Of a stretch of DNA of 16,486 nucleotides, positions 1 through 15,810 are shown in pieces. The position numbers were made by a program, and so were the translations under genes. The stretch is from a virus (lineage: Duplodnaviria > Heunggongvirae > Uroviricota > Caudoviricetes). The notes under the pieces are model-generated. The model searched no databases and was not told the origin of the DNA. It saw nothing but the letters and a program-made list of their open reading frames with translations. Location of the stretch: IMG/VR virus record IMGVR_UViG_2740892258_000006. One strand, given 5' to 3'. Numbering within the stretch: the stretch's first letter is position 1; each line of letters opens with the position of its first letter.

Positions 1-158
1 AGGAATAAGGCAAACCCAAGCGGTGCTTTCGACTGCACCATCCCCTGCGCAGCCATTACATCCGTAATTGTTAAACCACCCGAGCCTGTCGCCGATGCGT
101 CATCGCTCAATTTTGGAGATTTTGGGGAGTAATATTTCGGTAAGGCTTCAAGGTTCAT
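1..158 (-). CDS. Q: Antitermination protein Q (lambda Q-type), N-terminal 52 codons; gene runs off the left edge
   Basis: ATG at 158-156 with GGAG 7 nt upstream; translation MNLEALPKYYSPKSPKLSDDASATGSGGLTITDVMAAQGMVQSKAPLGFALF closely parallels the lambda Q N-terminus as I recall it (MRLESVAKFHSPKSP...GTDVMAAMGMAQSQAGFGMAAF). Confidence 0.7.
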   Translation of the reverse strand, partial: MNLEALPKYYSPKSPKLSDDASATGSGGLTITDVMAAQGMVQSKAPLGFALF

Positions 159-171
159 GCTCGTTCTCCAC

Positions 172-1077
172 TTACACCAGTACGCCAATTGCCAGCGCAC
201 GATCGATAAAACGAAATATCAGCTCCAGCTGGGAGCCATACATCTCTTCAAATGCCACGGTATCCGCATGCAGCTCGTCGTGATGCTTTCTGCACAAAGG
301 CAACACAAAAAGGTCATGCGCTTTTGTACCCATTCCACCCTGTCCGTGGCCTATCAGGTGGTGGGGATCATCAGCGGGCTTTCCACAACATGCACACGAC
401 TGTGTCTTAACCCAGCGCGTGTACTTTTCATTAACCCAGCGGCGACGTTTTGGGCGTAACATAAAAGACTCCGGCGACTCCGGATCCACTTTCAGCGCCA
501 GCACCTTTTTCGCCTTATCCTGGATGATGCTGGTGGCAGGAACCGAAGGCACAAGGTCACTTTCCCGGGTGACAGACGGCACAACAGGCTTCGGTAATCT
601 CAGTGCCTTACGGGCTGCACTTTCCGGTAAGGCATCCGCCAGATCATTACGAACCAGCCACCAGCACAGTTCCGGCATTGTCACAACGTGACTGTCATCA
701 AAACCGAGATCCCGACGCACAACAGACAACACCCAGCGGGCACAGTTATCCGTTGCCATTGATTCCAGCCGTTCCGTGAACTGATCGCGAAGCAGGTTAT
801 CGCAGTGCCAGCACAGACGGATTGCGCCCGGCGCGTGTCGCATTGTGGTCATGTTCTCGCTGTGCCAGTCGGAATGAGGCCACTGACAGCCCTTTTCACG
901 AAGTAACCAGCTTTCAAGACATTCCACACCCCCCGCACGACGAATAACTGCCTCATTGCGGAACACGGCCCGAATGGCAGGATCATCCGCCAGCGGTTGT
1001 GATGCCGCCGGAACGGCACCACTGGCAAAAGATGAATAACGTTCCGGCTCAGGCTCCAGCAGGACACGCCCCTGCAT
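172..1077 (-). CDS. Phage protein with C-terminal Cys/His zinc-finger/HNH-like motif (DUF968-like, tentative)
   Basis: 301-aa ORF; C-terminal CACCGKPADDPHHLIGHG...LCRKHHDELH motif; sits between KilA-N gene and Q; start may lie further upstream (see finding on T6 run at 1119-1124). Confidence 0.6.
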   Translation of the reverse strand: MQGRVLLEPEPERYSSFASGAVPAASQPLADDPAIRAVFRNEAVIRRAGGVECLESWLLREKGCQWPHSDWHSENMTTMRHAPGAIRLCWHCDNLLRDQFTERLESMATDNCARWVLSVVRRDLGFDDSHVVTMPELCWWLVRNDLADALPESAARKALRLPKPVVPSVTRESDLVPSVPATSIIQDKAKKVLALKVDPESPESFMLRPKRRRWVNEKYTRWVKTQSCACCGKPADDPHHLIGHGQGGMGTKAHDLFVLPLCRKHHDELHADTVAFEEMYGSQLELIFRFIDRALAIGVLV

Positions 1078-1243
1078 AAACAGCCGAACATGCAGCCTTT
1101 CGCCGTCAGCGACCAGAATTTTTTGATGTTGTTAATCGCTGTACGGCTGTATCGTTCGCGCTGTTCGACGATCCCCAGCTTCGCCATCTGGTGATATGCC
1201 TGATTAGCCGTAAGGCGGATACCATACTGTTTCAGCAGTGCAC

Positions 1244-1692
1244 TCAGCGACAGTGTCGGGCGACTTGAGCCATCAGGCGCGTCAGCAGGAGCATCAATGG
1301 CATAGCGCGGTGCGGTGTGCTGGTTACCATATCGAAAGTACGGATCACCTTCAGATGGAATGACGGGCTTATCCACATTGCATAGGCATACACCAGTTCT
1401 TTGCAGACATACGTCCCCTGGTTATTTCCGCCACGAATAACGTTAACTGGCTCTATATTGACCGAGTTGCAAATCTGCAACTCGCTTATTAAACGTTCAG
1501 TTTGCTCATTGCGGAGCCAGAATGCAGGCTTATGCTTATCCAGAGAACCGGCAGCCCTGTGCAGATCGTTCAGGCTGTAACGCCCATAAGCATCACGACG
1601 AACTTCAATACCATCTGCAGATCGTTCAGGCTGTAACGCCCATAAGCATCACGACGAACTTCAATACCATCAATAACCATCAGATTATTCAT
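1244..1692 (-). pseudogene. KilA-N domain protein (antirepressor-like), frame broken by a 56-bp tandem duplication
   Basis: ATG at 1692 with GGAGAAACGAAGT upstream; MNNLMVIDGIEVRRDAYGRYSLNDLHRAAG... joins ORF 1244..1480 (…ICNSVNIEPVNVIRGGNNQGTYVCKELVYAYAMWISPSFHLKVIRTFD) only if one copy of 1560-1671 is removed. Confidence 0.55.
1560..1671. repeat. Perfect tandem duplication, 2 x 56 bp (1560-1615 = 1616-1671)
   Basis: Identical copies read directly from sequence; inside KilA-N gene. Confidence 0.95.
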
Positions 1693-1711
1693 ACTTCGTT
1701 TCTCCTCTTAA

Positions 1712-2157
1712 TCAGGCAGCTGCACCCGCCGTTTTCTCGTACTTACTGATAGTGATCTCGACCTTCCCTTCCGGGATAACCGGTCCCCACTCCACCAGCA
1801 TTCTTTTCACCTGACTGTCGTCTTCCCACACACCCGCGTGGGTCAGGGCGTCAAACAGCGCCTTGTTATAGTTGTCCAGATCGCGGATCCGGTTATCCGG
1901 AGGAAACAACACGATCTCCACTGAAGCAGGTGCCGACGTTGGTTTCGGTTATCCGGAGGAAACAACACGATCTCCACTGAAGCAGGTGCCGACGTTGGTT
2001 TTGGCAGACGACGTAACTGCTCAACTATTGCTGCACACGCCGCGCTCTGGAATTTGCGCCCCGCCGCGCTTATCAGGCTCTTACCAGCAAACGCCCCTTT
2101 GTTGGGGTGTCGCCAGTACGTGTTCACGCTGGGCGGAAACGGCAGAATCAGCTTCAT
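1712..2157 (-). pseudogene. rusA: Holliday-junction resolvase RusA, frame broken by a 56-bp tandem duplication
   Basis: ORFs 1843..2157 (MKLILPFPPSVNTYWRH...) and 1712..1921 (...DNRIRDLDNYNKALFDALTHAGVWEDDSQV...) join into about 129 aa RusA-like protein when one duplicated copy is removed; ATGA stop/start overlap with upstream gene. Confidence 0.7.
1890..2001. repeat. Perfect tandem duplication, 2 x 56 bp (1890-1945 = 1946-2001)
   Basis: Identical copies read directly from sequence; inside rusA. Confidence 0.95.
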
Positions 2158-2480
2158 ACTTTCAGGCCCCTCTCATGTAACCAGTGGGCTGCACGCAGCC
2201 TGGCGTTTTCCTTACCGGCAAGCAGTGAGCGGATAATCCCGACCGCCTCGCTGTCGTCGTCCTTCACCGCGGTATGAAGAGTGATACCCCGGGCCACGCC
2301 ACGCTTTATCGTGATGACGCCTTTTTTCTCCAGTGCTCGAAGATGCTCCACCGCTGCATTCACTGAACGGTATCCCAGCATGGTTGCCACCTCCTGATTG
2401 GTTGGCGGGAAGCCACGTTCTTTCTGATAAGAAATCAGCATATCCAGCACCTGCTGCTGGCATTGAGTTAACGTCGTCAT
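2154..2480 (-). CDS. LexA N-terminal DNA-binding-domain protein (winged helix), phage regulator
   Basis: 108 aa; MTTLTQCQQQVLDMLISYQKERGFPPTNQEVATMLGYRSVNAAVEHLRALEKKGVI parallels LexA N-terminus; ATGA overlaps with neighbours on both sides. Confidence 0.65.
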   Translation of the reverse strand: MTTLTQCQQQVLDMLISYQKERGFPPTNQEVATMLGYRSVNAAVEHLRALEKKGVITIKRGVARGITLHTAVKDDDSEAVGIIRSLLAGKENARLRAAHWLHERGLKV

Positions 2481-3130
2481 GCCGCCATCTCCCTGAGCAG
2501 TTTTTCCGCCTGCTGGCGAACCTGCGCCAGAAACGCCTCACCACATGCCTCAAGTTCATCGCGCCCGATGTAGCTGATTGCCGGTCCCTTCCAGGTCTTG
2601 TCAAAAACAGCAATAGCACCAGCGAAGAAAGCTCCTGTCGGCACCTGCTTCTCGTCTTTCGGGATAAACCAGACAGGCAGTTCAAAACCAATACGCCCGC
2701 GAATAAAAGCAATATGATCTGCATCTTCCGGCCACCACACTTCGCTGGTGGCAGCTTTGATCAGGAAAACATAGCGCCCGCCTTTATCACGCATGGCACT
2801 GGCATGCTTCATGATGTAACGCATGCCGGTGATGTATTGCCCCTCATGCTGACTGGCGCGGCTGTATGGGGGATTACCAAAGGCAGCACCTTTAAGCTCC
2901 GCAAGACGTTCTGACCAGTCATGCGCCAGCGCATTGTCTTCCGCCGTGTAATACGCGGCACATTTGGCGTTACCACCGTCGGTGAACAGATCCAGAACAA
3001 ACGGGCCAAACAGGGTGTTAATTCCCCAGAAAATGTTGTCCGGCGTGCGCCACTGATCGCCCACTTCCTTCAGTTCATGGGCTGGTTTGTTCCGCAGCTC
3101 CACCAGCGCCTGGCAATATTTATTACTCAT
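2477..3130 (-). CDS. Phage DNA N6-adenine methyltransferase (Dam-like, orphan)
   Basis: NPPY motif (AFGNPPYSRA); start taken at ATG 3130 (MSNKYCQ...) where TAATG overlaps upstream stop; ORF track extends to 3163. Confidence 0.7.
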   Translation of the reverse strand: MSNKYCQALVELRNKPAHELKEVGDQWRTPDNIFWGINTLFGPFVLDLFTDGGNAKCAAYYTAEDNALAHDWSERLAELKGAAFGNPPYSRASQHEGQYITGMRYIMKHASAMRDKGGRYVFLIKAATSEVWWPEDADHIAFIRGRIGFELPVWFIPKDEKQVPTGAFFAGAIAVFDKTWKGPAISYIGRDELEACGEAFLAQVRQQAEKLLREMAA

Positions 3131-3624
3131 TAAGCCCCCACGTAATTCCCTGACAGATACCACTCTTCACCCGATGCAGCGCGCTTGCTGCTTTTCCGTA
3201 AGCACCGCTCACGACGCGCCAGAAAATTGTTTCGTTCTGGCTGGGAGTGGCTTTCACGGAATGCCGCCATCCACACGGTTGCAGCACGACGGTATAAACC
3301 CCTGGACTCCAGTTCTTCAGCCTGGCGGGTCAGGCACAAAATCACCCGTGGATCGTTAGTGCCGACATAGAAATTGCGCACAGGTCTGGTTTCTCGAACT
3401 GGTTGTGGTTCCGGTTCCTGCGCTCTCTCAGTCAGGCGCGGGAAATGTCTGCGTGTATCTCCTTCACAACGGTGAGCCACACGCCCACTCTGACGTAACT
3501 TGCTTGCTGACTGCAGAACGCGCTGTCGTGAGTAACCTGCAAAAGCATCCGCAATGTCACCGGAAGTACACCCCGGATGGGCTTCAATGAATTTCTGAAC
3601 GTCATTTAACAGACTCATGATCAC
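3130..3624 (-). CDS. Phage regulatory protein, C-terminal half PerC/Pch-like
   Basis: LESRGLYRRAATVWMAAF resembles the PerC-family GLWRRAA..W motif; N-terminal half looks winged-helix-like; GTG 3624 or ATG 3618 start overlapping upstream TGA. Confidence 0.5.
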   Translation of the reverse strand: MIMSLLNDVQKFIEAHPGCTSGDIADAFAGYSRQRVLQSASKLRQSGRVAHRCEGDTRRHFPRLTERAQEPEPQPVRETRPVRNFYVGTNDPRVILCLTRQAEELESRGLYRRAATVWMAAFRESHSQPERNNFLARRERCLRKSSKRAASGEEWYLSGNYVGA

Positions 3625-4154
3625 CCCCTGAATCCTGCCGGGATCTGGCTGTAGTCCACGTTGTCGTAACTGGCTTTGAAGTACGGGTCCTCGCGTTTTT
3701 CGGTGTACGTACTTACGGACGGCGATAAGCGCAGGGAAAGCTCATCCCATTTTTCCCGCAGCTTCGACGGGCTGAGCACGTTACGGCACCAGAACGGATC
3801 GCGGCTGACGCGGCTGTACATCTCGCAGATTTGTTTGTGAGTACGACCATCCTGCACACACATCAGGCGAATTTCGTTTGCCCAGGCTGTCCAGTTCGGT
3901 TCTTTGGGACGAACCACCTCGCCGTCACATTCGGCAGCCTGCTCGTACAGGGCGATGATTTTTTTCCAGAGCCACTGTGCGCAGGTCAAATCATCCTGCG
4001 TTCCCCACTGGCGCTTTTTAGGGCTGAATACAACAGCATCAGGATGGCGAGTTAAAAACTCCTGTTCAGCCGTCTGCGTGTCCGGTTGCGAAGCGTCCGG
4101 ACGAGAAGTTTTTTTCAGTTGCGAGCGACGGTAGTGTGTTGTTAAACTGTTCAT
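3621..4154 (-). CDS. Hypothetical phage early protein (177 aa), function not assigned
   Basis: Intact ORF, translationally coupled (ATGA) to upstream CII-like gene; Trp/Cys-rich C-terminal region. Confidence 0.55.
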   Translation of the reverse strand: MNSLTTHYRRSQLKKTSRPDASQPDTQTAEQEFLTRHPDAVVFSPKKRQWGTQDDLTCAQWLWKKIIALYEQAAECDGEVVRPKEPNWTAWANEIRLMCVQDGRTHKQICEMYSRVSRDPFWCRNVLSPSKLREKWDELSLRLSPSVSTYTEKREDPYFKASYDNVDYSQIPAGFRG

Positions 4155-4238
4155 GCGTTAGTTTCTCCACAGTCACGACACGCCACGGCGCCCGGAGCTG
4201 CACACTCGCGGGCGTCACTACTTTCTGAAACGCAAAAG

Positions 4239-4338
4239 ATTTTGTAGACCAGTGCTGCATGCTCCTGCAGCTTCGAAATTGAGAGGTAATTTTGTAGACC
4301 AGTGCTGCATGCTCCTGCAGCTTCGAAATTGAGAGGTA
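4239..4338. repeat. Perfect tandem duplication, 2 x 50 bp (4239-4288 = 4289-4338)
   Basis: Identical copies read directly from sequence. Confidence 0.95.
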
Positions 4339-4545
4339 CAGCTCATCGTTAATTGCTGTCTTCTCATGCGGTTCCACTACACCGTCTTCAATTGCTGAAC
4401 GAATCTGTTTTGAATAACTGCCGATCTGTTCAATGACCTCCAGCAGGCGTTGGTTGATATCGGCGTTGTCCACATCCTCGACGTCAGGAAGAGACACAAA
4501 GACGCCATTTGCAGACTGCGCCACAGCATCAGCAATGAAGTGAGT

Positions 4546-4567
4546 GCCACCAGCACGCCACCAGCAC
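4546..4567. repeat. Perfect tandem duplication, 2 x 11 bp (ccaccagcacg, phase ambiguous by one base)
   Basis: Read directly from sequence; both flanking ORFs encode RAGG across it. Confidence 0.85.
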
Positions 4568-4806
4568 GCTGTAAAACCATTGCCCATCCCAGCGGGAAAA
4601 TCTGATCGCCATCTGCACGAAGGCGGTTGAATAAAGCGTTTTCTGTTACATCGAGCCAGTCAGCCGCTTCAGCGTAACCACCCGGCAACGCCGCGATCGT
4701 TTTTCTGACAGCTTTCACGTACCACTCAGGCTGTTTTTCTATTTTCCAGTGATGCTTACCCACGATTAGCCTCATCGTTCTGTGGTTAAAAATTGAAAGT
4801 GTTCTG

Positions 4807-5007
4807 CTAATCTTTCGGATAGATATCCGGTCTTAAGTCAGATTTCGTAATTGCACCTGACGTGCATTGCTCAAGTTTTTTAGCCAGCACAAAACTGGCT
4901 TTTTTATAGCCATTGAAAACCAGCCGTAAGTAGCCAGGTGTTGAGCCAACTTTTCCGGCCAACTCGCCCTGCTGTTCTTTGGTTAAAGAGTCCCAATACG
5001 CTTTCAT
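4807..5007 (-). CDS. cro: Cro-like small HTH repressor
   Basis: 66-aa ORF (MKAYWDSLTKEQQGELAGKVGSTPGYLRLVFNGYKK...) divergent from cI-like gene; GGAGG upstream; start at 5007 within longer ORF 4807..5310. Confidence 0.6.
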   Translation of the reverse strand: MKAYWDSLTKEQQGELAGKVGSTPGYLRLVFNGYKKASFVLAKKLEQCTSGAITKSDLRPDIYPKD

Positions 5008-5013
5008 ACAATG

Positions 5014-5079
5014 TGTACCTCCGGTGTACATATTACATGATTGAAATGAACCTTCAAGATACTTGTACCTTAACGGTAC
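5014..5079. promoter_or_regulatory. Immunity-region operators and divergent promoters: O1 TGTACCtccggTGTACA (5014-5030), O2 TGTACCttaacGGTACA (5063-5079); PR-like -10 TAATAT (5030-5035) and -35 CTTGAA (5053-5058) on minus strand
   Basis: Two 17-bp dyad sites sharing TGTACC half-sites between divergent cro and cI starts; 17-bp spacer between -35 and -10. Confidence 0.5.
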
Positions 5080-5097
5080 AAGGGTTTTAATTTCGTT

Positions 5098-5772
5098 ATG
5101 AAAACAATCCATGACATCCGGCGGTCTAACGCCAGAAAACTGAGAGATGGTGTTGGCGGGAATTCTTCCTTTGCCACTATGATTGATCGCGAGCCAACCC
5201 AGACCAGCAGGTTTATGGGAGATGGTGCTACTAAAAATATCGGTGACAGCATGGCACGACACATCGAAAAATGTTTCGACCTGCCTGTCGGATGGCTCGA
5301 TCAAGAACACCAGACAACGAACATCACAAAAAAACCTGATGTTTCAATCACTAATAAACAAATCACATTAGTCCCTGTCATATCATGGGTACAGGCCGGA
5401 GCATGGAAAGAAGTTGGATATTCTGAGGTTGATTTGAGCACAGCAGAAACGTATCCCTGCCCTGTACCCTGTGGGGAAATGACTTATATCTTGCGGGTGA
5501 TAGGTGATTCAATGATTGATGAGTACCGCCCGGGAGACATGATTTTTGTCGATCCTGAAGTACCTGCCTGCCACGGTGACGACGTTATTGCATTGATGCA
5601 CGATACAGGTGAAACCACCTTCAAAAGGTTGATAGAAGATGGGACACAGCGTTATCTCAAAGCGTTAAACCCAAACTGGCCTGAGCCTTACATTAAGATC
5701 AACGGTAATTGCTCTATAATTGGTACTGTGATTTTCTCAGGAAAACCAAGAAGATACAAAATCAAAGCCTAA
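5098..5772 (+). CDS. cI: CI-like prophage repressor (HTH N-terminus + S24 LexA-type peptidase C-terminus)
   Basis: C-terminal GDSM Ser motif and downstream Lys (TFKRL) of S24 autopeptidases; divergent from cro. Confidence 0.8.
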   Translation: MKTIHDIRRSNARKLRDGVGGNSSFATMIDREPTQTSRFMGDGATKNIGDSMARHIEKCFDLPVGWLDQEHQTTNITKKPDVSITNKQITLVPVISWVQAGAWKEVGYSEVDLSTAETYPCPVPCGEMTYILRVIGDSMIDEYRPGDMIFVDPEVPACHGDDVIALMHDTGETTFKRLIEDGTQRYLKALNPNWPEPYIKINGNCSIIGTVIFSGKPRRYKIKA

Positions 5773-5784
5773 TCAATGTTTATG

Positions 5785-5807
5785 AACCTGCTTCGGCAGG
5801 TTTTTTT
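5785..5807 (+). terminator. Rho-independent terminator after cI (aacctgc-ttcg-gcaggtt + T7)
   Basis: 7-bp GC-containing stem, 4-nt loop, T-run. Confidence 0.7.
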
Positions 5808-5924
5808 ATACTTGACAATGTACCTTTGAGATACATAATGTACCCAAGAGAAACAACAAACAGGCAGGACGCCCACGAAGTAGCCGCCTGGGGCATATGA
5901 AGTCCAGGATGATTCGTTAGCAAC

Positions 5925-5947
5925 AAAAAAGCGCCCTATAGGACGCT
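5925..5947 (-). terminator. Rho-independent terminator for the LprI-like gene (agcgucc-uaua-gggcgcu + U6 on minus strand)
   Basis: Hairpin with one G-U pair followed by T6, 28 nt after the stop. Confidence 0.55.
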
Positions 5948-5974
5948 TCGCTCTTTAACAATCTGGATGACTTA

Positions 5975-6487
5975 TTACTCAGATTTGAACTTTGGTTCTG
6001 GCAAAAGAGGAGGAGTTGAGTCCTCGAATCGTAGCCAGTGCTCCCAGATATCGTGGGATTGTAATTCCAGAAGACCAATTTGACGTGATGCAACTGCAGT
6101 GCCAGCTATAGTTCCTCCTGCATAATCAACCTGGACGGACTTTGACGCTTTCTCAATTAATTCTGTCCAAGCTTCACTTTCCGCGTTAAAAGAAGCAGTT
6201 AATTCCTGCAGACGCTGTGGATCATCCTTGTTGTCTTGTTTCAAACGATTCAGGGCGGCCACCGAATACTTATTCTTAACCCAACTAACCTGAGCTAACT
6301 GAACTCTCTGACAAGCGTCCATATCAGTAGTTGTTTCCTGAGGCATATCAAAGCAGGAAATAAAAAAAGTCTCAACACCATCATTTAGACTACTGCTCGG
6401 CTGGTTCAAAGCATCAGAAGCATTGGATGCTATCGGTATTATCAGTGCTACCGACAGAATCAAACGTTTAACATAAATCGCTCCCAT
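5975..6487 (-). CDS. Secreted/periplasmic protein with signal peptide, LprI-like (DUF1311) fold suspected; moron
   Basis: N-terminal MGAIYVKRLILSVALIIPIASNA signal-like sequence; Cys...Cys and Trp/Tyr spacing reminiscent of DUF1311; antisense to surrounding operon; own terminator. Confidence 0.5.
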   Translation of the reverse strand: MGAIYVKRLILSVALIIPIASNASDALNQPSSSLNDGVETFFISCFDMPQETTTDMDACQRVQLAQVSWVKNKYSVAALNRLKQDNKDDPQRLQELTASFNAESEAWTELIEKASKSVQVDYAGGTIAGTAVASRQIGLLELQSHDIWEHWLRFEDSTPPLLPEPKFKSE

Positions 6488-6968
6488 TTAATTATCCCCT
6501 CTAAGAACAGAGTCATCCAGATTAGCCGAATCCTTGTTGTTGGGGAATAACCAGGCCCACCTCGCCTGATGTGGCTAAAAGCAGGCACATAACAGCTAAG
6601 TATTTTCAACCAGAGAGAATCCTTAGCGTTGTGGTGAATGCGGCTCAGCGCACGCGGGTTAAGGTTGAGGCTGACAGTCGACCTTCTGTGGATACCCACC
6701 CGCCTGGTGTGCAACCTTCGCCAGGCACCGGGAGGCACCCGGCACCACAACTTTATGCTGTGTGTAGTCCTGGCGGTACCAGCATGCCCTTATTTCTGCT
6801 CAGGGTGTTAATGAAATTATCAGTAAGATTGGTGCCGACGCAGTGGCATTACCTGAAAATTTCCGCATTCATGATCTGGAAAAATTTAATTTAAATCGCT
6901 TCCGTTTCCGTGGTGCGCTTTCCACTGCCAGCATCGATGACTTTACCCGTTATTCTAAAGATCTTGCG

Positions 6969-7080
6969 GATGAAGGCACCCGCTGCTTTATCGATGCCGA
7001 TAATATGCGTGCCGTCAGTGTGCTGATGAAGGCACCCGCTGCTTTATCGATGCCGATAATATGCGTGCCGTCAGTGTGCT
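6969..7080. repeat. Perfect tandem duplication, 2 x 56 bp (6969-7024 = 7025-7080)
   Basis: Identical copies read directly from sequence. Confidence 0.95.
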
Positions 7081-7204
7081 TAACCTGGGTACTATTGATG
7101 AGCCTGGTCACGCAGATAACACCGCCACTCTCAAACTGAAAAAGACAGCACCGTTCTCTGCTCTGTTGTCTGTTAATGGCGAGCGTCATTCCCAGAAGTC
7201 ACTG

Positions 7205-7316
7205 GCAGAATGGATTGAAGACTGGGCCGACTACCTTGTGGGCTTTGATGCTAATGGTGAGCAGAATGGATTGAAGACTGGGCCGACTACCTTGTGGGCT
7301 TTGATGCTAATGGTGA
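7205..7316. repeat. Perfect tandem duplication, 2 x 56 bp (7205-7260 = 7261-7316)
   Basis: Identical copies read directly from sequence. Confidence 0.95.
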
Positions 7317-7980
7317 TGCCATTCAGGCAACAAAAGCGGCTGCGGCAGTCCGTAAAATCACGATTGAAGCAAACCAGACCGCTGATTTTGAAGACAATGA
7401 CTTCAGCGGCAAACGCTCCCTGATGGAGTCTGTCGAAGCGAAGACCAAAGATATTATGCCAGTGGCATTTGAATTTAAATGCGTTCCGTTTGAAGGCCTG
7501 AAAGAACGTCCGTTTAAATTACGCCTCAGCATTATCACTGGCGATCGTCCTGTACTGGTTCTGCGCATTATTCAGCTGGAAGCAGTGCAGGAAGAAATGG
7601 CTAACGAATTTCGTGATCTGCTTGTTGAGAAATTCAAGGACAGCAAAGTAGAAACCTTTATTGGTACTTTTACCGCCTGATTTCATTACTGCAAATGCCC
7701 CTGCGGGGGCATTTATGGAAACGTAATTGACTCAATAATCGCCGGATGGTGAGGGCTTTCTTTTACCAGAATTCAGCGCGGTGCAGCGCATATACGTGGA
7801 GAACAAAATGTCATTTATTAAAACTTTTTCCGGGAAGCATTTTTATTATGACAGGATAAATAAAGACGACATCGTTATTAACGATATCGCGGTTTCTCTT
7901 TCAAATATCTGTCGCTTTGCAGGACATCTTTCACATTTCTACAGCGTCGCCCAACATGCGGTGCTTTGCAGCCAACTGGT

Positions 7981-8092
7981 ACCGCAGGAATTTGCTTTTG
8001 AAGCGTTAATGCATGATGCAACAGAAGCGTATTGCCACCGCAGGAATTTGCTTTTGAAGCGTTAATGCATGATGCAACAGAAGCGTATTGCC
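7981..8092. repeat. Perfect tandem duplication, 2 x 56 bp (7981-8036 = 8037-8092)
   Basis: Identical copies read directly from sequence. Confidence 0.95.
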
Positions 8093-8222
8093 AGGACATC
8101 CCCGCGCCGCTGAAACGCCTTCTTCCTGACTATAAACGGATGGAAGAAAAAATAGACGCCGTAATCCGTGAGAAATACGGGTTACCCCCGGTTATGAGTA
8201 CGCCCGTGAAATATGCCGATCT

Positions 8223-8334
8223 CATCATGCTGGCAACCGAACGCCGCGATCTCGGGCTTGATGATGGCTCTTTCTGGCCATCATGCTGGCAACCGAACGC
8301 CGCGATCTCGGGCTTGATGATGGCTCTTTCTGGC
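8223..8334. repeat. Perfect tandem duplication, 2 x 56 bp (8223-8278 = 8279-8334)
   Basis: Identical copies read directly from sequence. Confidence 0.95.
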
Positions 8335-8552
8335 CCGTACTGGAAGGTATCCCGGCAACAGAGATGTTCAAAGTTATTCCACTGTCGCCAGGCCATACCT
8401 ATGGGATGTTTATGGAACGCTTTAAAGAGTTAACTGAGTCGTAAAAATCAGCACGTACGAATTCAAACTCTGCCATAAAAGAACATATAAGTAATTTATT
8501 AACATATAGATATAGGTTATATTACAAATTGAAAAATTATTGGAGAGCAACA

Positions 8553-9419
8553 ATGAATCAAAATCCATTCTCATTCTATGACTTTCTTGGATATTTAATA
8601 CCAGGTGGTTTTTTTATCCTATTAATGTATTTCTGTGGTTTGACATTCGATCTAGATATTGTTATTGACTTAAGTGAATTGCTCAGAGGTCAAAGTCAAA
8701 TCTTTGGCATTTTGAACTACGCTTCAATAGTTATTATATCTTATATAGCTGGACATTTTATTTCTATCACGTCAGCATTTTTTATCGAAAAATACATGAA
8801 TAAAGAATTAGGATATCCTTCCAAATATCTATTTAAAAAATTGATAGATACCTCAGAAAGCATTTGTAGCCCATCATGCGATGAGAGAAGCGCTGATAAA
8901 AAAACAAAAATAAAGAATCGCATAATCAAATGCGTATTATGTCCAATAATACTATGGGATTTTATAACACAAAAACTATGTTATTCTCAATCTCTACCAT
9001 TTCATTTAGCTAATACAACATGGTTAATGATCAAAGAAGGTTATGAGAAAAAGTTCATAACAAATCGCCAATTATTACAAGATAAAAACGGACTTGATGA
9101 TGATCTCTTCAGATTGGCATATCATTATGTTTATGAGTTTTCAAAACAACATCAAACAAAAATTCAAAACTATGTTGCATTATATGGTTTTTGCAGAAAC
9201 ATATGTTTAATCTTTATAATTTCATTTTGGGTATCAGTTCCAACCTTTATTTATCGATTATGTACTCATAGTGATTATCTTTATAGTTTACTTTCAATAA
9301 TGCTTAGCTTTTTCTTCGTCTATGTTTTCTATGTTGGTTTTGTTAAATTTTATAGAAGATATACTTTAGAAGTATTAATGGCATTTGCTGTACTTCAAAG
9401 TAACGACACTATTCGTTAA
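8553..9419 (+). CDS. AT-rich multi-pass membrane protein (4-5 predicted TM helices), moron of unknown function
   Basis: ATG 8553 with GGAGA 7 nt upstream; hydrophobic segments FLGYLIPGGFFILLMYF, IFGILNYASIVIISYIAGHFI, ICLIFIISFWVSVPTFIY, LLSIMLSFFFVYVFYVGFV; strongly AT-rich versus neighbours. Confidence 0.6.
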   Translation: MNQNPFSFYDFLGYLIPGGFFILLMYFCGLTFDLDIVIDLSELLRGQSQIFGILNYASIVIISYIAGHFISITSAFFIEKYMNKELGYPSKYLFKKLIDTSESICSPSCDERSADKKTKIKNRIIKCVLCPIILWDFITQKLCYSQSLPFHLANTTWLMIKEGYEKKFITNRQLLQDKNGLDDDLFRLAYHYVYEFSKQHQTKIQNYVALYGFCRNICLIFIISFWVSVPTFIYRLCTHSDYLYSLLSIMLSFFFVYVFYVGFVKFYRRYTLEVLMAFAVLQSNDTIR

Positions 9420-9460
9420 TAATGTTGCTCCCGTGTGCAGACGGGATAATGGAGAAACGT

Positions 9461-9667
9461 ATGCTGAACCTCGATTGTGTTCCTATCTCAACTTATTGCA
9501 AAGAAACTGGCGAAACTCCTGAAGCAATAAACAAACGTGTACAGCGCGGTGTTTGGCGTGAAGGTGTTCAGGTTTTAAAGGTTGAAGGCGTTAAGGAGAG
9601 GTGGATTGATCTTAGTGAGGTTGCAAAATGGGCCAGACAAAACTGCTCAAACTACCGCGCGGCGTAA
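9461..9667 (+). CDS. xis: Excisionase-like protein (Xis)
   Basis: Small basic protein directly upstream of and overlapping int; start at ATG 9461 (GGAG 6 nt upstream) within ORF 9422..9667. Confidence 0.6.
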   Translation: MLNLDCVPISTYCKETGETPEAINKRVQRGVWREGVQVLKVEGVKERWIDLSEVAKWARQNCSNYRAA

Positions 9668-10800
9668 CAATCAGGAAACACCACCAGGGAGAAACGATCA
9701 ATATAACTTTCACCTACAAAGGAGTTAGATGTCGTGAGCCGCTTTCCAATCTGGAAGTAACACCAAAGAACATTAAATACGCCGAGCGTACACTCGGCGA
9801 AATCCATAATAAGATCGAAAGGGGAACATTCATTTATGCAGAATATTTTCCCCGTTCTGCTCGTTTGAAAATTTTTGGTAATGCTGCTGCAAGCAAAACG
9901 GTAAAGATGTACCTGGACGAATATCTTGAAATCTGCGAAACAAGAAAACTTTCACCCTCTACGATTGGTGGCTATAAAAAATGCCGTAGTGCGTTAGCCT
10001 CACTTCACATTTGCCCTGCAAGTGAATTAACACCAGCAACCCTGAAAGCGTGGATTCAAAGCCAGAAAACAACCTTAAAAACCATTCGCAACCAGTTATC
10101 TTTCCTACGGTCAGCACTTGATGAAGCCGTGACCGATGGGGTACTTCAAATTAACCCCGTATCGTTAGTAACAGCTTCGCGCTACCAAAGTGATAAGTCA
10201 GAAGCAGAAAGCAGCTATGTGGTTGATCCGCTATCACCAGCAGAAGTTGATGCATTACTAGCAGCAGCCGGAAACAAACAATGGGAAAATCTGTTCCGGT
10301 TCGCCATACATACAGGCCTGCGTAGTTCTGAATTATGTGCCCTACGATGGCATGATATCGACTTTGTTGGAAAAACAGCCCATGTTCAGAGCGCAAGTGT
10401 TGTCGGAGTTATCAAAGGAACAAAGACAAAAGCCGGTACCCGTAAAGTTGAACTGACTGAAGAAGCAATGTTGGCGTTGATAAACCAGAAGCCATTTACA
10501 TTCATGAAGGATGCTACTGTCTTTGAAGATCCAAAGACCAATAAACCCTGGGCAAGTGCTGATGCAATTAGGAAAAAAGCATGGGTGCCAACATTGCGAA
10601 AAGCAGGTATTCGTTACAGAAACCCATATCAAACCAGGCATACATTCGCCACCAGCCATATCAGCCGGGGAGCAAACCTGTTTTGGCTTGCGGCTCAAAT
10701 GGGCCATAAAGGGCCTGAAATGTTATTCAGGCACTATGGACAATACTTGAAAGAGTATGATGGGAGGGCAAGTATCAAGGATAAAAAGGCTTTATTTTAA
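9628..10800 (+). CDS. int: Tyrosine site-specific integrase (lambda-type with N-terminal arm-binding domain)
   Basis: 390 aa; catalytic-domain signatures HTGLRSSELCALRW (Arg), RHTFATSH (His-x-x-Arg), GHKGPEMLFRHYGQY (His...Tyr). Confidence 0.9.
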   Translation: MGQTKLLKLPRGVTIRKHHQGETINITFTYKGVRCREPLSNLEVTPKNIKYAERTLGEIHNKIERGTFIYAEYFPRSARLKIFGNAAASKTVKMYLDEYLEICETRKLSPSTIGGYKKCRSALASLHICPASELTPATLKAWIQSQKTTLKTIRNQLSFLRSALDEAVTDGVLQINPVSLVTASRYQSDKSEAESSYVVDPLSPAEVDALLAAAGNKQWENLFRFAIHTGLRSSELCALRWHDIDFVGKTAHVQSASVVGVIKGTKTKAGTRKVELTEEAMLALINQKPFTFMKDATVFEDPKTNKPWASADAIRKKAWVPTLRKAGIRYRNPYQTRHTFATSHISRGANLFWLAAQMGHKGPEMLFRHYGQYLKEYDGRASIKDKKALF

Positions 10801-11409
10801 GTCATTATGCCAATCGTCTACTGTTTGAAACCAAATTTTTAACCTTTGCATAAAGGTACGATCCTTTTTGGGAGGGTGGTACCTTTGAAAAGAAGTATGT
10901 AACGCTTCGATAACTCCCATACAAGCATCAATTACTTCTTGTGCTTTAACCGGGCGATCGGCATCTGAAAGCTTGTGAGCGACCTCACAATCCAGAGTTG
11001 CTTTCTCTAGTACAGATGAGAACACCTCGTCAGGTATATACAGTCCTCTGCTTTCCAAAATGCAAATCAGTTTGGAAACTTGTTGAGCTTTAGCCAAGAT
11101 AGTTAACAAGTATGAAACAGAAGCCTTTGTTCTATCCTTTTGCAACCTTAACAATCGATGCTTTGATGCTCTAATTTTAGGTTGAGTTGTCTGACTGAGC
11201 CAATAGTTAGAAGAAATATCAGAAATTTCAATAACTAACTTTGAAATAGCATCAATAATTGATTTCGATTCAGAACGTGTCGCCAGTTTTACAGAATTAT
11301 TGTACGCAACTCGCCATCCAATGAAAACTAAGCAGACGCTAACTACTGTGATACACCACGAATACTGTCCTATTTGTGCTACTAATGACATTGGTTCCGT
11401 ACTGATCAA
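10792..11409 (-). CDS. Cargo operon gene C: membrane-anchored protein (one N-terminal TM helix, helical soluble domain), unknown function
   Basis: TTG start at 11409 with AAGAGG overlapping upstream stop (alternative ATG 11391); TM segment YSWCITVVSVCLVFIGWRVAY; 3' end overlaps int by 9 nt. Confidence 0.6.
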   Translation of the reverse strand: MISTEPMSLVAQIGQYSWCITVVSVCLVFIGWRVAYNNSVKLATRSESKSIIDAISKLVIEISDISSNYWLSQTTQPKIRASKHRLLRLQKDRTKASVSYLLTILAKAQQVSKLICILESRGLYIPDEVFSSVLEKATLDCEVAHKLSDADRPVKAQEVIDACMGVIEALHTSFQRYHPPKKDRTFMQRLKIWFQTVDDWHNDLK

Positions 11410-11419
11410 CTATCGCCTC

Positions 11420-11746
11420 TTATACTCTTTCTGGTTGTGCTAAATCAATAAATTTATCAATCTGTTCTTTGTAGAACGGAACATCACTTTTTATAATCAA
11501 ACGTGCTTTAACGTTGGCTTTAGGTATCCCTTCCTTACGGATGAGACCTCCAAACGCCTCTTCTAAGAAAGAGGAACCAACACCCAGTGCTATACCGCGA
11601 AAATCAACCACAATCTCCTGTTCAGTACCCTTCAGCGCAGGCACCAAAAACTCTCTACGAAATCTTTCCGCACTGTGTGGGCTATCCGTTGTGTAACGTC
11701 CGAAAGGTGTTCTGGAGAACTCCTTCGCTATGACGATATTTCTCAT
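11420..11746 (-). CDS. Cargo operon gene B: small STAS-like protein (DUF4325-like, tentative)
   Basis: 108 aa; AGGAG 8 nt upstream of ATG 11746; motif EIVVDFRGIALGVGSSFLEEAFGGLI resembles STAS-like DUF4325 as I recall it; 4-nt gap to gene A. Confidence 0.6.
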   Translation of the reverse strand: MRNIVIAKEFSRTPFGRYTTDSPHSAERFRREFLVPALKGTEQEIVVDFRGIALGVGSSFLEEAFGGLIRKEGIPKANVKARLIIKSDVPFYKEQIDKFIDLAQPERV

Positions 11747-11750
11747 AAAA

Positions 11751-12662
11751 TCATCTCCTGGGAACCAGCGACCATTGTAGTAAAGTACCCGGTATGTACT
11801 CAGCTAGCTTCTCACATCGAGGACTACTGTCATTAGAATTATAGCTATAACGAGCCCTTCCTGTTAGTATCAGAAGTGTCTCATTATCCTCACAACCTGC
11901 CCCAATAGGTCTCTTGATATCTTCAGAGCCATTTCCCCGTCCGGAACCAACAAAGCGGGATTCCCCTACTAACATAGCTCTTTCCACAGAAGATACTTCG
12001 TTTTGAATGCTATGACCATCACCATTAGGCACGAAACTTCTATAAATCCCCAATCCAAGGTCACAAACGATAAAAACGACTTTATTTTCATCACGATTGA
12101 ACCAAGCGCACTGCCACCATCGTTTACCTTTGAGAAGCTGAATATCTGACTCGAACCCCTCATCTTCATACGCATGATGAGAAACATTGAGCAAAGCTTC
12201 ACTAATCGCTGTCAGCAGTAAGCCTAACTGTTCATTATTAAGCAGAGCACTTTTCTGCAGCATGAGTACTGTTTCAACAATATGCTCGTAAGGTTCGACA
12301 GCTGACTGAAAGTATCGTTCCTCCCTCGTAAGTGCATTCAGTTTCTCTTCTGTGCCAGCAAGCAAAGCACGAGCAAGTCCAGTACCAACGATCCATCTAT
12401 GCCCAGATGGGTTATCATCCTTTTTAGGCCATTTAAAACGTATAAAATTAGGGTCCCGGGTTAAAAATTGAGCTCTATTTACTATGGCAAAGAACAGTAC
12501 CGATGCCGCAGCTGAGGCAAATTTTACCTTGGACAAATCAACTATAACTCGACCTTTATTTTTTACTCCAATCGATTCAATCGAGTTGATGAAGTTCAAT
12601 GTCCCAGCCCTAGAATCATCTGAGTAAATGCAAAATTTGCTTGGGGGTACCAGTATGGTCAT
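11751..12662 (-). CDS. Cargo operon gene A: GHKL (histidine-kinase-like) ATPase with unassigned N-terminal domain
   Basis: 303 aa; Bergerat-fold motifs in the C-terminal half: N-box EALLNVSHHA, G1 CDLGLGI, G2 GSGRGNG. Confidence 0.65.
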   Translation of the reverse strand: MTILVPPSKFCIYSDDSRAGTLNFINSIESIGVKNKGRVIVDLSKVKFASAAASVLFFAIVNRAQFLTRDPNFIRFKWPKKDDNPSGHRWIVGTGLARALLAGTEEKLNALTREERYFQSAVEPYEHIVETVLMLQKSALLNNEQLGLLLTAISEALLNVSHHAYEDEGFESDIQLLKGKRWWQCAWFNRDENKVVFIVCDLGLGIYRSFVPNGDGHSIQNEVSSVERAMLVGESRFVGSGRGNGSEDIKRPIGAGCEDNETLLILTGRARYSYNSNDSSPRCEKLAEYIPGTLLQWSLVPRR

Positions 12663-12813
12663 AGCGATGTCATTCTTATACGATGGATTTATAGATTATC
12701 TACTATTCATAGTTGGTTATGAAGACTGGGATATAACAGTAAAAGATACGTGTAAGATCCGCAAGATAGTTAATGTCGAAAAAATCATTAATTACATCAA
12801 GTTAGTGATATTT

Positions 12814-12851
12814 GGACTCGGGTTCAACTCCCGCCAGCCAATCATGATTGG
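12814..12851 (+). other. Candidate att remnant: 25-nt match to the 3' end of tmRNA/ssrA (GGACtCGGGTTCAACTCCCGCCAGC) followed by perfect palindrome CCAATCATGATTGG (12838-12851)
   Basis: Recalled E. coli ssrA 3' end is ...GGACGCGGGTTCAACTCCCGCCAGCTCCACCA; one mismatch here and divergence after CAGC. Confidence 0.55.
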
Positions 12852-12970
12852 ACGGTGTAAGGACTACACCAACAAAAACAGGAAGTTATAAGTCTCAGCA
12901 GGACACCGACCAGACGGTGAGGAGACAAAAAAGGATACGCAACGGAGTCGCGACTCCCTATGACATTAAA

Positions 12971-12993
12971 GCCCGCTGATGCGGGCTTTTTTA
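12971..12993 (+). terminator. Rho-independent terminator (gcccgc-tgat-gcgggc + T6)
   Basis: Perfect 6-bp GC stem, 4-nt loop, T-run; lies about 130 bp downstream of the ssrA-like fragment. Confidence 0.65.
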
Positions 12994-13299
12994 TTGGTCC
13001 TGACCCGCCCTGAATAGAATTCATCCAATTACAGTCCAGACATATACAGTATCCCTCAGCTCAGTATCAGCTTCTCGACAAATGGTCACTGTTATTTACC
13101 CGTTGCCAGAAAGAGAATAATTTGCCCCCATAGCCAGCCTTCCCGGAATCTGTATATTCATTAATATTGTTATCGATTCCATCAAGTAACATAGGTTGGA
13201 TGCGATTGATCTTACTCACATTAGTCGACACGGAACTCAGTAAGTTGAACTCTGAAAAAGCAGTTTAAATAGCATTTAAACAAATGCCACCAGTTCGAA

Positions 13300-14500
<1,201 letters not shown>

Positions 14501-14519
14501 GCGCAAAGGAATTGAGCGG

Positions 14520-15788
14520 ATGTATGATTTTTTGATTATTGGCGGCGGCATCATCGGCATGTCGACCGCCATGCAACTAATTGATGTTTATCCGGATGCC
14601 CGCATAGCGTTGCTGGAAAAAGAGCCCGGCCCGGCCTGTCACCAGACGGGCCACAACAGTGGCGTAATCCATGCCGGGGTCTATTACACGCCCGGCAGCC
14701 TGAAGGCGCAGTTTTGCCTGGCAGGAAACCGCGCCACCAAAGCCTTTTGCGATCAAAACGGTATTCGCTACGACAACTGCGGCAAGATGCTGGTCGCCAC
14801 GTCTGAACTCGAAATGGAACGGATGCGCGCCTTATGGGAACGCACGGCGGCGAACGGAATCGATCGCGAGTGGTTAAACGCCGAAGAGCTGCGCGAGCGC
14901 GAACCAAATATCACCGGGCTGGGCGGTATTTTTGTGCCGTCCAGCGGCATTGTCAGCTACCGCGAAGTGACGGCGGCAATGGCAAAAATTTTTCAGGCCA
15001 GAGGCGGTGAGATTATCTATAACGCCGAAGTCAGCGCCCTCAGTGAGCATAAAAACGGCGTGGTGATATGTACCCGTCAGGGCGGTGAATATGAAGCATC
15101 GACGCTGATTAGCTGTTCCGGGCTGATGGCTGACCGGCTGGTGAAAATGCTCGGCCTCGAACCGGGCTTTATTATCTGCCCGTTCCGCGGCGAGTATTTC
15201 CGCCTTGCGCCGGAGCATAACCAGATTGTTAACCACCTGATTTACCCCATTCCCGACCCGGCAATGCCGTTTTTGGGCGTGCATCTCACCCGCATGATCG
15301 ACGGCAGTGTGACCGTCGGGCCAAACGCGGTGCTGGCTTTCAAACGCGAAGGCTATCGTAAGCGCGACTTCTCATTTAGCGACACGCTGGAAATTTTGGG
15401 CTCGTCGGGGATTCGCCGGGTGCTGCAAAACCATCTACGCTCAGGACTGGGCGAGATGAAAAACTCGCTGTGCAAAAGCGGCTATCTGCGGCTGGTGCAA
15501 AAGTATTGTCCCCGGCTTTCGTTAAGCGATCTCCAGCCCTGGCCCGCCGGTGTGCGGGCGCAGGCGGTATCGCCGGACGGCAAGCTGATTGACGATTTTC
15601 TGTTTGTCACCACCCCGCGCACGATCCACACCTGTAATGCGCCCTCCCCGGCAGCGACATCAGCAATTCCTATTGGTGCGCATATTGTCAGCAAGGTACA
15701 AACGCTGTTGGCAAGCCAGAGTAACCCCGGACGCACGCTGCGAGCGGCACGTAGTGTGGATGCCTTACACGCCGCATTTAATCAATAA
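14520..15788 (+). CDS. lhgO: L-2-hydroxyglutarate dehydrogenase/oxidase LhgO (FAD-dependent)
   Basis: 422 aa from ATG 14520 (AAGGA upstream); FAD-binding LIIGGGIIG motif; ORF track extends upstream to 14454 overlapping csiD. Confidence 0.9.
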   Translation: MYDFLIIGGGIIGMSTAMQLIDVYPDARIALLEKEPGPACHQTGHNSGVIHAGVYYTPGSLKAQFCLAGNRATKAFCDQNGIRYDNCGKMLVATSELEMERMRALWERTAANGIDREWLNAEELREREPNITGLGGIFVPSSGIVSYREVTAAMAKIFQARGGEIIYNAEVSALSEHKNGVVICTRQGGEYEASTLISCSGLMADRLVKMLGLEPGFIICPFRGEYFRLAPEHNQIVNHLIYPIPDPAMPFLGVHLTRMIDGSVTVGPNAVLAFKREGYRKRDFSFSDTLEILGSSGIRRVLQNHLRSGLGEMKNSLCKSGYLRLVQKYCPRLSLSDLQPWPAGVRAQAVSPDGKLIDDFLFVTTPRTIHTCNAPSPAATSAIPIGAHIVSKVQTLLASQSNPGRTLRAARSVDALHAAFNQ

Positions 15789-15810
15789 CCTTTGAAAACA
15801 GGATGTAGCG

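What the first reader, a model, noticed from the sequence alone, without database searches (positions are those of the whole stretch)
1560..8334. Eight perfect tandem duplications of near-identical size disrupt five prophage genes
Exact two-copy tandem duplications occur at 1560-1671, 1890-2001, 6969-7080, 7205-7316, 7981-8092, 8223-8334 (all 56 bp), 4239-4338 (50 bp) and 4546-4567 (11 bp). Each lies inside a coding region and shifts the frame; removing one copy restores a full-length ORF in every case (KilA-N, rusA, CII-like, yfdQ-like, yfdR-like). None was seen in the host genes, int or cargo operon on a by-eye scan. The identical lengths and zero divergence between copies are not what independent natural duplications look like. 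This points to a systematic assembly or consensus artefact, or engineered/insertional scarring, and would otherwise represent coordinated pseudogenisation of early genes.
Basis: seen in the sequence. Interest (0 to 1): 0.7.

Follow-up and report, generated by a model that had tools for sequence, protein, structure and literature searches.

The report
Assembly-stitching artefact in a prophage
The eight "perfect duplications" are almost certainly not biology: they look like seams left when short assembly fragments of a prophage, which has a near-twin elsewhere in the same genome, were glued end to end without removing their 56-base overlaps, so the broken genes are probably false.

Summary
All eight exact tandem duplications (six of 56 bp, one of 50, one of 11) are at the stated coordinates.

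All 12 events fit one model. The window is the entire 16,486-bp contig CVOH01000132.1 of the draft assembly GCA_001245225.1. It is a chain of 13 de Bruijn-graph fragments joined with no overlap trimming and no gap.

Close ST95 relatives of UTI89, such as IHE3034, carry a second prophage about 96.5% identical over the same early genes. Every fragment end lies exactly 56 nt inside, or exactly at the edge of, an exact-match block shared by the two prophages (24 of 24 ends, plus the contig's own left end; chance about 1e-51). Only an overlap of 56 nt (k = 57) fits.

- A retained shared fragment gives a pair of 56-bp duplications.
- A dropped shared fragment of length m gives a duplication of 112−m (62→50, 101→11) or a deletion of m−112 (297→185, 257→145, 868→756).

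All seven SNPs in the prophage are the twin prophage's alleles. None of the 12 junctions occurs in 5,426 complete E. coli genomes. Verdict: not a real feature; low interest.

The parts
1..1083 (.). Fragment 1 (= UTI89 locus L001 9001-10083). The contig's left end lies 56 nt before the end of shared block 8959-9056. The right end lies 56 nt into shared block 10028-10104. It carries two paralog alleles, at 868 and 869.
1083..1084 (.). Junction with a 185-bp artefactual deletion. The collapsed shared fragment L001 10028-10324 (297 bp) was omitted; 297-112 = 185. It truncates the DUF968 gene.
1313..1314 (.). Junction with a 145-bp artefactual deletion. Shared block L001 10443-10699 (257 bp) was omitted; 257-112 = 145. 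It lies inside KilA-N.
1560..1671 (.). 56-bp duplication: an untrimmed k-1 overlap. The left fragment ends 56 nt into the shared block that starts at L001 10890, and the retained shared fragment starts at 10890. It lies in KilA-N.
1616..1945 (.). Retained collapsed-repeat fragment (L001 10890-11219, 330 bp), bounded by the start and the end of shared blocks. All of its alleles are of the local (UTI89) type.
1890..2001 (.). 56-bp duplication: an untrimmed overlap at the end of shared block L001 11089-11219. It lies in rusA.
4115..4116 (.). Junction with a 756-bp artefactual deletion. The collapsed shared stretch L001 13278-14145 (868 bp) was omitted; 868-112 = 756. It removes the 5' end of the helix-turn-helix gene and all of DUF4222.
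4239..4338 (.). 50-bp duplication. The two flanking fragments each reach 56 nt into the 62-bp shared block L001 14207-14268, and the shared fragment was omitted; 112-62 = 50. It lies in ymfL.
4546..4569 (.). 11-bp duplication. The construction is the same, across the 101-bp shared block L001 14426-14526; 112-101 = 11. It lies in ymfL.
6782..6783 (.). Junction with a 640-bp artefactual deletion. The left fragment ends exactly at the end of shared block L001 16470-16695. The right fragment starts 56 nt before the end of block 17246-17391. It removes yfdP and the start of yfdQ.
6969..7080 (.). 56-bp duplication: an untrimmed overlap at the start of shared block L001 17522-17598. It lies in yfdQ.
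7025..7260 (.). Retained collapsed-repeat fragment (L001 17522-17757, 236 bp). It is chimeric: local alleles at 7102 and 7105, paralog alleles at 7177, 7187 and 7189.
7205..7316 (.). 56-bp duplication: an untrimmed overlap at the end of shared block L001 17687-17757. It lies in yfdQ.
7981..8093 (.). 56-bp duplication: an untrimmed overlap at the start of shared block L001 18423-18487. It lies in yfdR.
8038..8279 (.). Retained collapsed-repeat fragment (L001 18423-18664, 242 bp). It is chimeric: paralog alleles at 8103 and 8109, local alleles at 8190 and 8202.
8223..8335 (.). 56-bp duplication: an untrimmed overlap at the end of shared block L001 18588-18664. It lies in yfdR.
8280..16486 (.). 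Last fragment, unique sequence: the end of yfdR, integrase, cargo genes, and host glaH, lhgO and gabD. It is colinear with UTI89, with one SNP (14264) and no structural anomaly.

Best explanation
The window is one contig of a short-read draft assembly, CVOH01000132.1 of GCA_001245225.1. The strain is a near-identical relative of E. coli UTI89. The strain's genome evidently holds two lambdoid prophages whose early regions are about 96.5% identical, as in IHE3034.

In a de Bruijn graph with k = 57, every exact block of at least 57 bp shared by the two prophages makes a branching node. Each unique fragment therefore ends exactly 56 nt (k-1) inside a shared block. Each shared (collapsed) fragment runs from the first to the last base of its block or chain of blocks, with small differences merged as popped bubbles.

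A later scaffolding or gap-closing step then wrote 13 such fragments one after another, with neither overlap trimming nor gap characters. Where the shared fragment was kept, its two 56-nt overlaps with its neighbours became a pair of perfect 56-bp tandem duplications. Where it was left out, presumably because it was used once in the other prophage's scaffold or discarded, the two neighbours were abutted. For a shared stretch of length m, that gives a net duplication of 112-m (m = 62 gives 50; m = 101 gives 11) or a net deletion of m-112 (297 gives 185; 257 gives 145; 868 gives 756).

Shown here: the geometry, the unique fit of k-1 = 56, the paralog alleles inside the retained fragments, the absence of the junctions from finished genomes, and the draft-contig origin. 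Inferred: that the source strain itself carries the paralog (IHE3034 served as proxy), the fate of the omitted fragments, and which program made the joins.
For:: relative to UTI89 the window is 13 colinear pieces, with 8 duplications and 4 deletions confined to 1-8335. The remaining 8.2 kb has one SNP.

IHE3034, a close relative, has a paralogous prophage at tRNA-Arg with the same gene order (antiterminator, DUF968, KilA-N, RusA..., YmfL..., YfdP, YfdQ, YfdR).

all 24 internal piece ends fall on block start+55, block end-55, block start or block end of exact blocks of at least 57 bp shared with that paralog. About 0.77% of positions qualify, so the chance of all 24 fitting is about 2e-51. Among overlaps from 40 to 74 nt, only 56 gives any offset-type fits (17; all other values give 0).

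the contig's own first base is also block end-55.

in a k = 57 de Bruijn graph built from the two loci, 25 of 25 testable piece ends lie on branching nodes. For k = 51, 53, 55, 59, 61 and 63 the count is 6-7 of 25.

The sizes 50, 11, 185, 145 and 756 follow exactly from |112-m|.

all 7 prophage SNPs relative to UTI89 are the paralog's alleles, and they switch by whole variant cluster.

none of the 12 junction 40-mers occurs in 5,426 complete E. coli genomes.

the window equals the whole contig CVOH01000132.1, and junction-specific proteins are known from that single contig only.

PMC5368935 documents that contig ends of de Bruijn assemblies carry k-1 bases of unresolved repeat.
Against: No reads were available, so the artefact is inferred from geometry and not observed directly.

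The paralog used is from IHE3034, not from the source strain.

Only 18 edges of the 39 shared blocks of at least 57 bp became fragment ends. Some blocks of 98-109 bp were traversed cleanly while blocks of 62 and 101 bp were not.

Standard scaffolders normally insert N or merge exact overlaps, so the step that abutted the fragments is unidentified.

The contig's right end, in gabD, is not explained by this repeat.
Confidence: 0.97

Rival explanations
1. These are real, heritable tandem duplications and deletions, from replication slippage or unequal exchange, that pseudogenise the prophage early genes as part of prophage domestication.
For: The copies are exact and lie in coding regions. Defective prophages do accumulate inactivating mutations (general knowledge).
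Against: Six independent events of exactly 56 bp are not expected from slippage. Every end coincides to the base with the edge of an exact repeat shared with another prophage at an offset of 56, and slippage has no reason to respect that. The 50-bp and 11-bp sizes and the deletion sizes follow |112-m| exactly. No junction occurs in 5,426 complete genomes, including near-identical ST95 strains.
Confidence: 0.01
2. These are footprints of a mobile element or an engineered insertion: target-site duplications of fixed length left after insertion and excision, or recombineering scars.
For: Equal-length direct repeats are the hallmark of target-site duplication.
Against: Nothing lies between the copies, and no constant scar sequence (FRT, lox, att or similar) is present; each unit is local sequence. 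From general knowledge, known target-site duplications are about 2-15 bp, not 56. This reading does not explain the deletions, the 50-bp and 11-bp sizes, the paralog alleles, or the coincidence with repeat edges.
Confidence: 0.005
3. The duplications and deletions are artefacts, but the paralog-type SNP patches (868-869, 7177-7189, 8103-8109) reflect real gene conversion between the two resident prophages.
For: The patches are exactly the paralog's alleles. Recombination between co-resident lambdoid prophages is known (general knowledge).
Against: Five of the seven SNPs lie inside fragments bounded by artefactual seams, that is, in collapsed-repeat fragments where the assembler picks one bubble arm. 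The other two lie between two shared blocks of at least 57 bp (9795-9867 and 9870-9927), a classic simple bubble. UTI89 and more than 20 near-identical genomes lack them at this locus.
Confidence: 0.03

Closest known systems
Untrimmed k-1 contig overlaps and collapsed repeats in de Bruijn-graph short-read assemblies (for example Velvet- or ABySS-type graphs followed by scaffolding and gap filling)
   Same: The overlap length is constant at k-1. Fragment ends reach k-1 bases into unresolved repeats, as described for contig ends in PMC5368935. The collapsed fragments have chimeric alleles. The problem is confined to the part of the prophage that has a paralog.
   Different: Scaffolders usually merge exact overlaps or insert N. 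Here the fragments were abutted with neither, inside a record deposited as a single gap-free contig. The exact software was not identified. The Velvet, SSPACE and GapFiller pipeline of PMC5320598 is only a candidate: k at 66-90% of read length would allow k = 57 for reads of about 64-86 nt.
UTI89-type lambdoid prophage beside glaH (csiD), and its paralog at tRNA-Arg in IHE3034 and other ST95 strains
   Same: After the 12 seams are undone, the window is identical to UTI89 2,928,993-2,946,807, apart from 7 paralog-type SNPs and 1 host SNP.
   Different: The seams are the only differences. There is no evidence that the prophage in this strain differs biologically from UTI89's.
Target-site duplications of transposable elements
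   Same: They are direct repeats of uniform length.
   Different: There is no element and no scar. The length (56 bp) is far outside the known range. The positions are dictated by repeat edges. Accompanying deletions follow the same arithmetic.

Membership tests
De Bruijn-graph overlap-concatenation artefact | The duplicated unit has one constant length equal to k-1 of an admissible (odd) k. | tested here: met
   Six units are exactly 56 bp. Only an overlap of 56 (k = 57) places the piece ends on repeat edges or branching nodes.
De Bruijn-graph overlap-concatenation artefact | Every seam lies at the edge of an exact repeat of at least k bases present elsewhere in the genome. | tested here: met
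   24 of 24 internal ends, plus the contig's left end, fit the exact blocks shared with the paralogous prophage of IHE3034, which served as proxy for the strain's own copy.
De Bruijn-graph overlap-concatenation artefact | Events of other sizes obey the same arithmetic: 2(k-1)-m when a shared fragment of length m is omitted. | tested here: met
   62 gives +50; 101 gives +11; 297 gives -185; 257 gives -145; 868 gives -756.
De Bruijn-graph overlap-concatenation artefact | Collapsed-repeat fragments carry a mixture of alleles from the two copies. | tested here: met
   All 7 SNPs are the paralog's alleles, switching cluster by cluster.
De Bruijn-graph overlap-concatenation artefact | The sequence comes from a short-read draft assembly, and the junctions are absent from finished genomes. 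| tested here: met
   The window is the whole contig CVOH01000132.1 of GCA_001245225.1. No junction occurs in 5,426 complete E. coli genomes. That the reads were short is inferred, not read from the record.
De Bruijn-graph overlap-concatenation artefact | Raw reads do not support the junctions. | not testable with these tools
   There is no access to reads.
Natural tandem duplication / pseudogenisation | Heritable: the same events are seen in related genomes. | tested here: not met
   There were no matches for any junction. The best 25 relatives all lack every event.
Natural tandem duplication / pseudogenisation | Event positions are independent of sequence elsewhere in the genome. | tested here: not met
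   The positions are fully determined by the edges of blocks shared with a paralog.
Transposon target-site duplication or engineered scar | An inserted element or a constant scar sequence lies between or next to the repeats. | tested here: not met
   The copies are directly adjacent, and all sequence at the junctions is local prophage sequence.

The most novel reading that the evidence does not exclude
The most novel reading still open is that the paralog-type SNP patches record real gene conversion between two co-resident prophages in this strain, hidden under the assembly seams. A reading in which any of the duplications themselves is biological (for example an unknown process making 56-bp staggered breaks at repeat edges) is, for practical purposes, excluded.
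Probability: 0.03. Interest if true: 0.2.

Novelty: not a real feature. Interest (0 to 1): 0.05.

Why it matters
There is no biological significance. The practical value is as a data-quality warning. This deposited contig produces false pseudogenes and false gene losses in nine prophage genes. It has also put spurious, junction-derived proteins into public protein collections as singletons or odd cluster members. The signature found here could be used to flag the same fault in other draft assemblies before pseudogene, prophage-decay or pan-genome analyses: exact tandem copies of one fixed length k-1, placed at the edges of intragenomic repeats, with companion events of size |2(k-1)-m|.

Tried and rejected
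(1) I first expected a simple SNP-bubble picture, with variants directly next to the 56-bp units relative to UTI89. The SNPs turned out to lie 11-97 bp from the units. The correct reference for the unit edges was the paralogous prophage, not UTI89.

(2) I looked for a minimum-length rule to explain which shared fragments were kept (330, 236, 242 bp) and which were dropped (62, 101, 257, 297, 868 bp). No threshold fits. Assignment of each collapsed fragment to one of the two prophage scaffolds is more plausible but was not tested.

(3) A look-up of the frameshifted RusA product (104 aa) found nothing, because the gene caller chose other ORFs. Other artefact-specific ORFs did identify the record.

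(4) A literature search for the WGS prefix CVOH01 gave only an irrelevant hit, so the assembly method of this record could not be documented.

(5) I considered recoded or refactored synthetic genomes (duplicated gene overlaps) and transposon footprints at the outset. I dropped both because no constant or foreign sequence is present and because of the fit to repeat edges.

(6) PADLOC and Pfam scans of the cargo genes were made only for the noticed-in-passing list and have no bearing on the finding.
Full report
OBSERVATION. Six are 56 bp (starting at 1560, 1890, 6969, 7205, 7981 and 8223), one is 50 bp (4239) and one is 11 bp (4546). There are no others in the 16,486 bases. This part of the finding is correct and cannot be chance.

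CONTEXT. A megablast of window 1-9000 against 5,426 complete E. coli genomes gives near-identical hits (99.8%) in UTI89, NU14, APEC O1/O18, S88, IHE3034 and other ST95-type strains. Every hit is split into 12 pieces and spans 10,329 bases of the reference. I fetched the UTI89 region as L001 and aligned it. The window proved to be 13 colinear pieces. All 12 events lie in the prophage early region, from the DUF968 gene to yfdR. The remaining 8.2 kb (end of yfdR, integrase, cargo, and host glaH, lhgO, gabD) differs from UTI89 by one SNP.

This holds for RusA, YmfL and YfdR only. KilA-N and YfdQ remain broken by deletions. DUF968 and the helix-turn-helix protein are truncated, and DUF4222 and YfdP are lost.

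NOT HERITABLE. I built a composite query of the 12 junctions as 40-mers. Each half is 20 nt, shorter than megablast's 28-nt word, so only an intact junction can match. It finds nothing in the 5,426 complete genomes.

THE KEY: A PARALOGOUS PROPHAGE. The 236-bp piece between the two yfdQ duplications matches a second yfdQ copy in the same ST95 strains slightly better than it matches the orthologous locus. In IHE3034 that copy belongs to a second lambdoid prophage at tRNA-Arg (L002). It has the same early gene order and about 96.5% identity over exactly the stretch where the window is abnormal.

I listed the maximal exact matches between the UTI89 locus and this paralog and compared them with the ends of the 13 pieces. 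All 24 internal ends fall on one of four predicted positions. These are 56 nt into a shared block (block start+55), 56 nt before the end of a shared block (block end-55), exactly at a block start, or exactly at a block end. About 0.77% of positions qualify, so the chance of 24 of 24 is about 2e-51. Six junctions have 1-2 bp of placement ambiguity, which does not change the conclusion.

I repeated the test for assumed overlaps from 40 to 74 nt. Offset-type fits appear for 56 only (17; 0 for every other value). The contig's own first base also lies at block end-55, for block 8959-9056.

As a positive control I built a de Bruijn graph from the two loci. With k = 57, 25 of 25 testable piece ends lie on branching nodes. 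With k = 51, 53, 55, 59, 61 or 63, only 6-7 do.

THE ARITHMETIC. Where a shared fragment was kept between two unique fragments, its two 56-nt overlaps appear as a pair of 56-bp duplications. The kept fragments are L001 10890-11219, 17522-17757 and 18423-18664. This explains why the six 56-bp events come in three pairs, 330, 236 and 242 bp apart.

Where the shared fragment of length m was left out and its neighbours were abutted, the net change is 112-m. The 62-bp block gives +50, the 101-bp block gives +11, the 297-bp stretch gives -185, the 257-bp block gives -145 and the 868-bp stretch gives -756. The fourth deletion runs from the exact end of block 16470-16695 to 56 nt before the end of block 17246-17391.

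One rule therefore accounts for all 12 events, including the two odd-sized duplications and the deletions.

ALLELES. All seven SNPs relative to UTI89 inside the prophage (868, 869, 7177, 7187, 7189, 8103, 8109) are the paralog's alleles. Other variant clusters in the same fragments keep the local alleles. A collapsed-repeat fragment in which the assembler chose one arm per bubble would look like this.

ORIGIN. Exact look-up of proteins that exist only because of the seams shows each on a single NCBI contig of 16,486 bp. That contig is CVOH01000132.1 of assembly GCA_001245225.1, and the window is the whole contig. The same clusters hold many 'partial' YfdR and helix-turn-helix proteins from other draft assemblies, which suggests that short-read assemblies commonly break in these repeated prophage genes.

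The general behaviour is documented: contig ends of de Bruijn assemblies carry k-1 bases of unresolved repeat (PMC5368935). One widely used pipeline is described in PMC5320598. It runs Velvet with k at 66-90% of read length, then the greedy tools SSPACE and GapFiller, then removes short contigs. I could not establish that this record was made that way, so the identity of the program that abutted the fragments is an inference at most.

MECHANISM, COMMITTED. This is an assembly artefact (confidence 0.97). It arose from a k = 57 graph, repeat-induced fragmentation caused by two prophages about 96.5% identical, bubble popping within the shared stretches, and end-to-end concatenation of the fragments without trimming or gap characters. 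The prophage in the strain is most probably the same as UTI89's, with all these genes intact.

RIVALS. Natural duplications or pseudogenisation, transposon or engineering scars, and real gene conversion for the SNP patches are each addressed in their own sections. None explains the base-exact dependence on the edges of blocks shared with a paralog.

UNEXPLAINED. Only 18 edges of the 39 shared blocks of at least 57 bp became fragment ends. Some 98-109-bp blocks were read through while 62- and 101-bp blocks were not. Read or pair threading could account for this, as could differences between IHE3034's paralog and the strain's own. The contig's right end in gabD is not explained by this repeat. 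All four deletion junctions show 1 bp of ambiguity, which is probably chance.

VERDICT. This is not a real biological feature, and interest is low. Its only value is as a cautionary, easily recognisable signature of a faulty join in draft assemblies.

Noticed in passing
window 10792-12662 (- strand): A three-gene cargo module lies between the integrase and host glaH. It encodes a 205-aa protein with no family, a 108-aa STAS-like DUF4325 protein (PF14213, E 6e-14), and a 303-aa protein with a sub-threshold histidine-kinase-like ATPase match (HATPase_c_2, 22.9 bits against a cutoff of 27.4). There is no PADLOC hit. The module is annotated at the same position in UTI89, and this part of the window shows no difference from UTI89. 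It resembles a partner-switching pair and might be a phage-borne accessory or defence module.
   Followed up: partly
window 8553-9419 (+ strand): A 288-aa hypothetical protein upstream of the integrase has no Pfam family. It gives a weak PADLOC match to the membrane protein Csx27 (E 1.4e-5), which may simply reflect membrane-protein composition.
   Followed up: no
window 172-1077, 3621-4154, 6843-7139, 7808-8065: Truncated or frameshifted products that exist only because of the seams are present in the public protein collection, each from this one contig. The 98-aa product is a singleton cluster. These are spurious database entries.
   Followed up: yes
window 16486 (contig right end, in gabD): The contig ends inside the host gene gabD. 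This position is not a branching node of the two-prophage graph, and the cause of the break is unknown. It could be another repeat or a coverage drop.
   Followed up: no
window 14264 (glaH): This is the only difference from UTI89 in the 8.2 kb outside the repeated region (A against G). It is presumably a true strain SNP and shows that the strain is a very close relative of UTI89.
   Followed up: no
L001 9201-9309, 12679-12776 and other shared blocks (window about 201-309 and 3461-3558): Several exact blocks of 79-109 bp shared with the paralog were assembled through cleanly with local alleles, although shorter blocks of 62 bp and similar blocks of 101 bp caused breaks. Why the assembler resolved some and not others was not determined.
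   Followed up: partly
L001 16544-16854 (UTI89); window about 6631-6782: UTI89 itself annotates a frameshifted hypothetical gene here, and IHE3034's paralog has the equivalent. This is therefore a real pseudogene, shared among finished genomes and unrelated to the artefact. Its 3' part is removed by the 640-bp artefactual deletion in the window.
   Followed up: no
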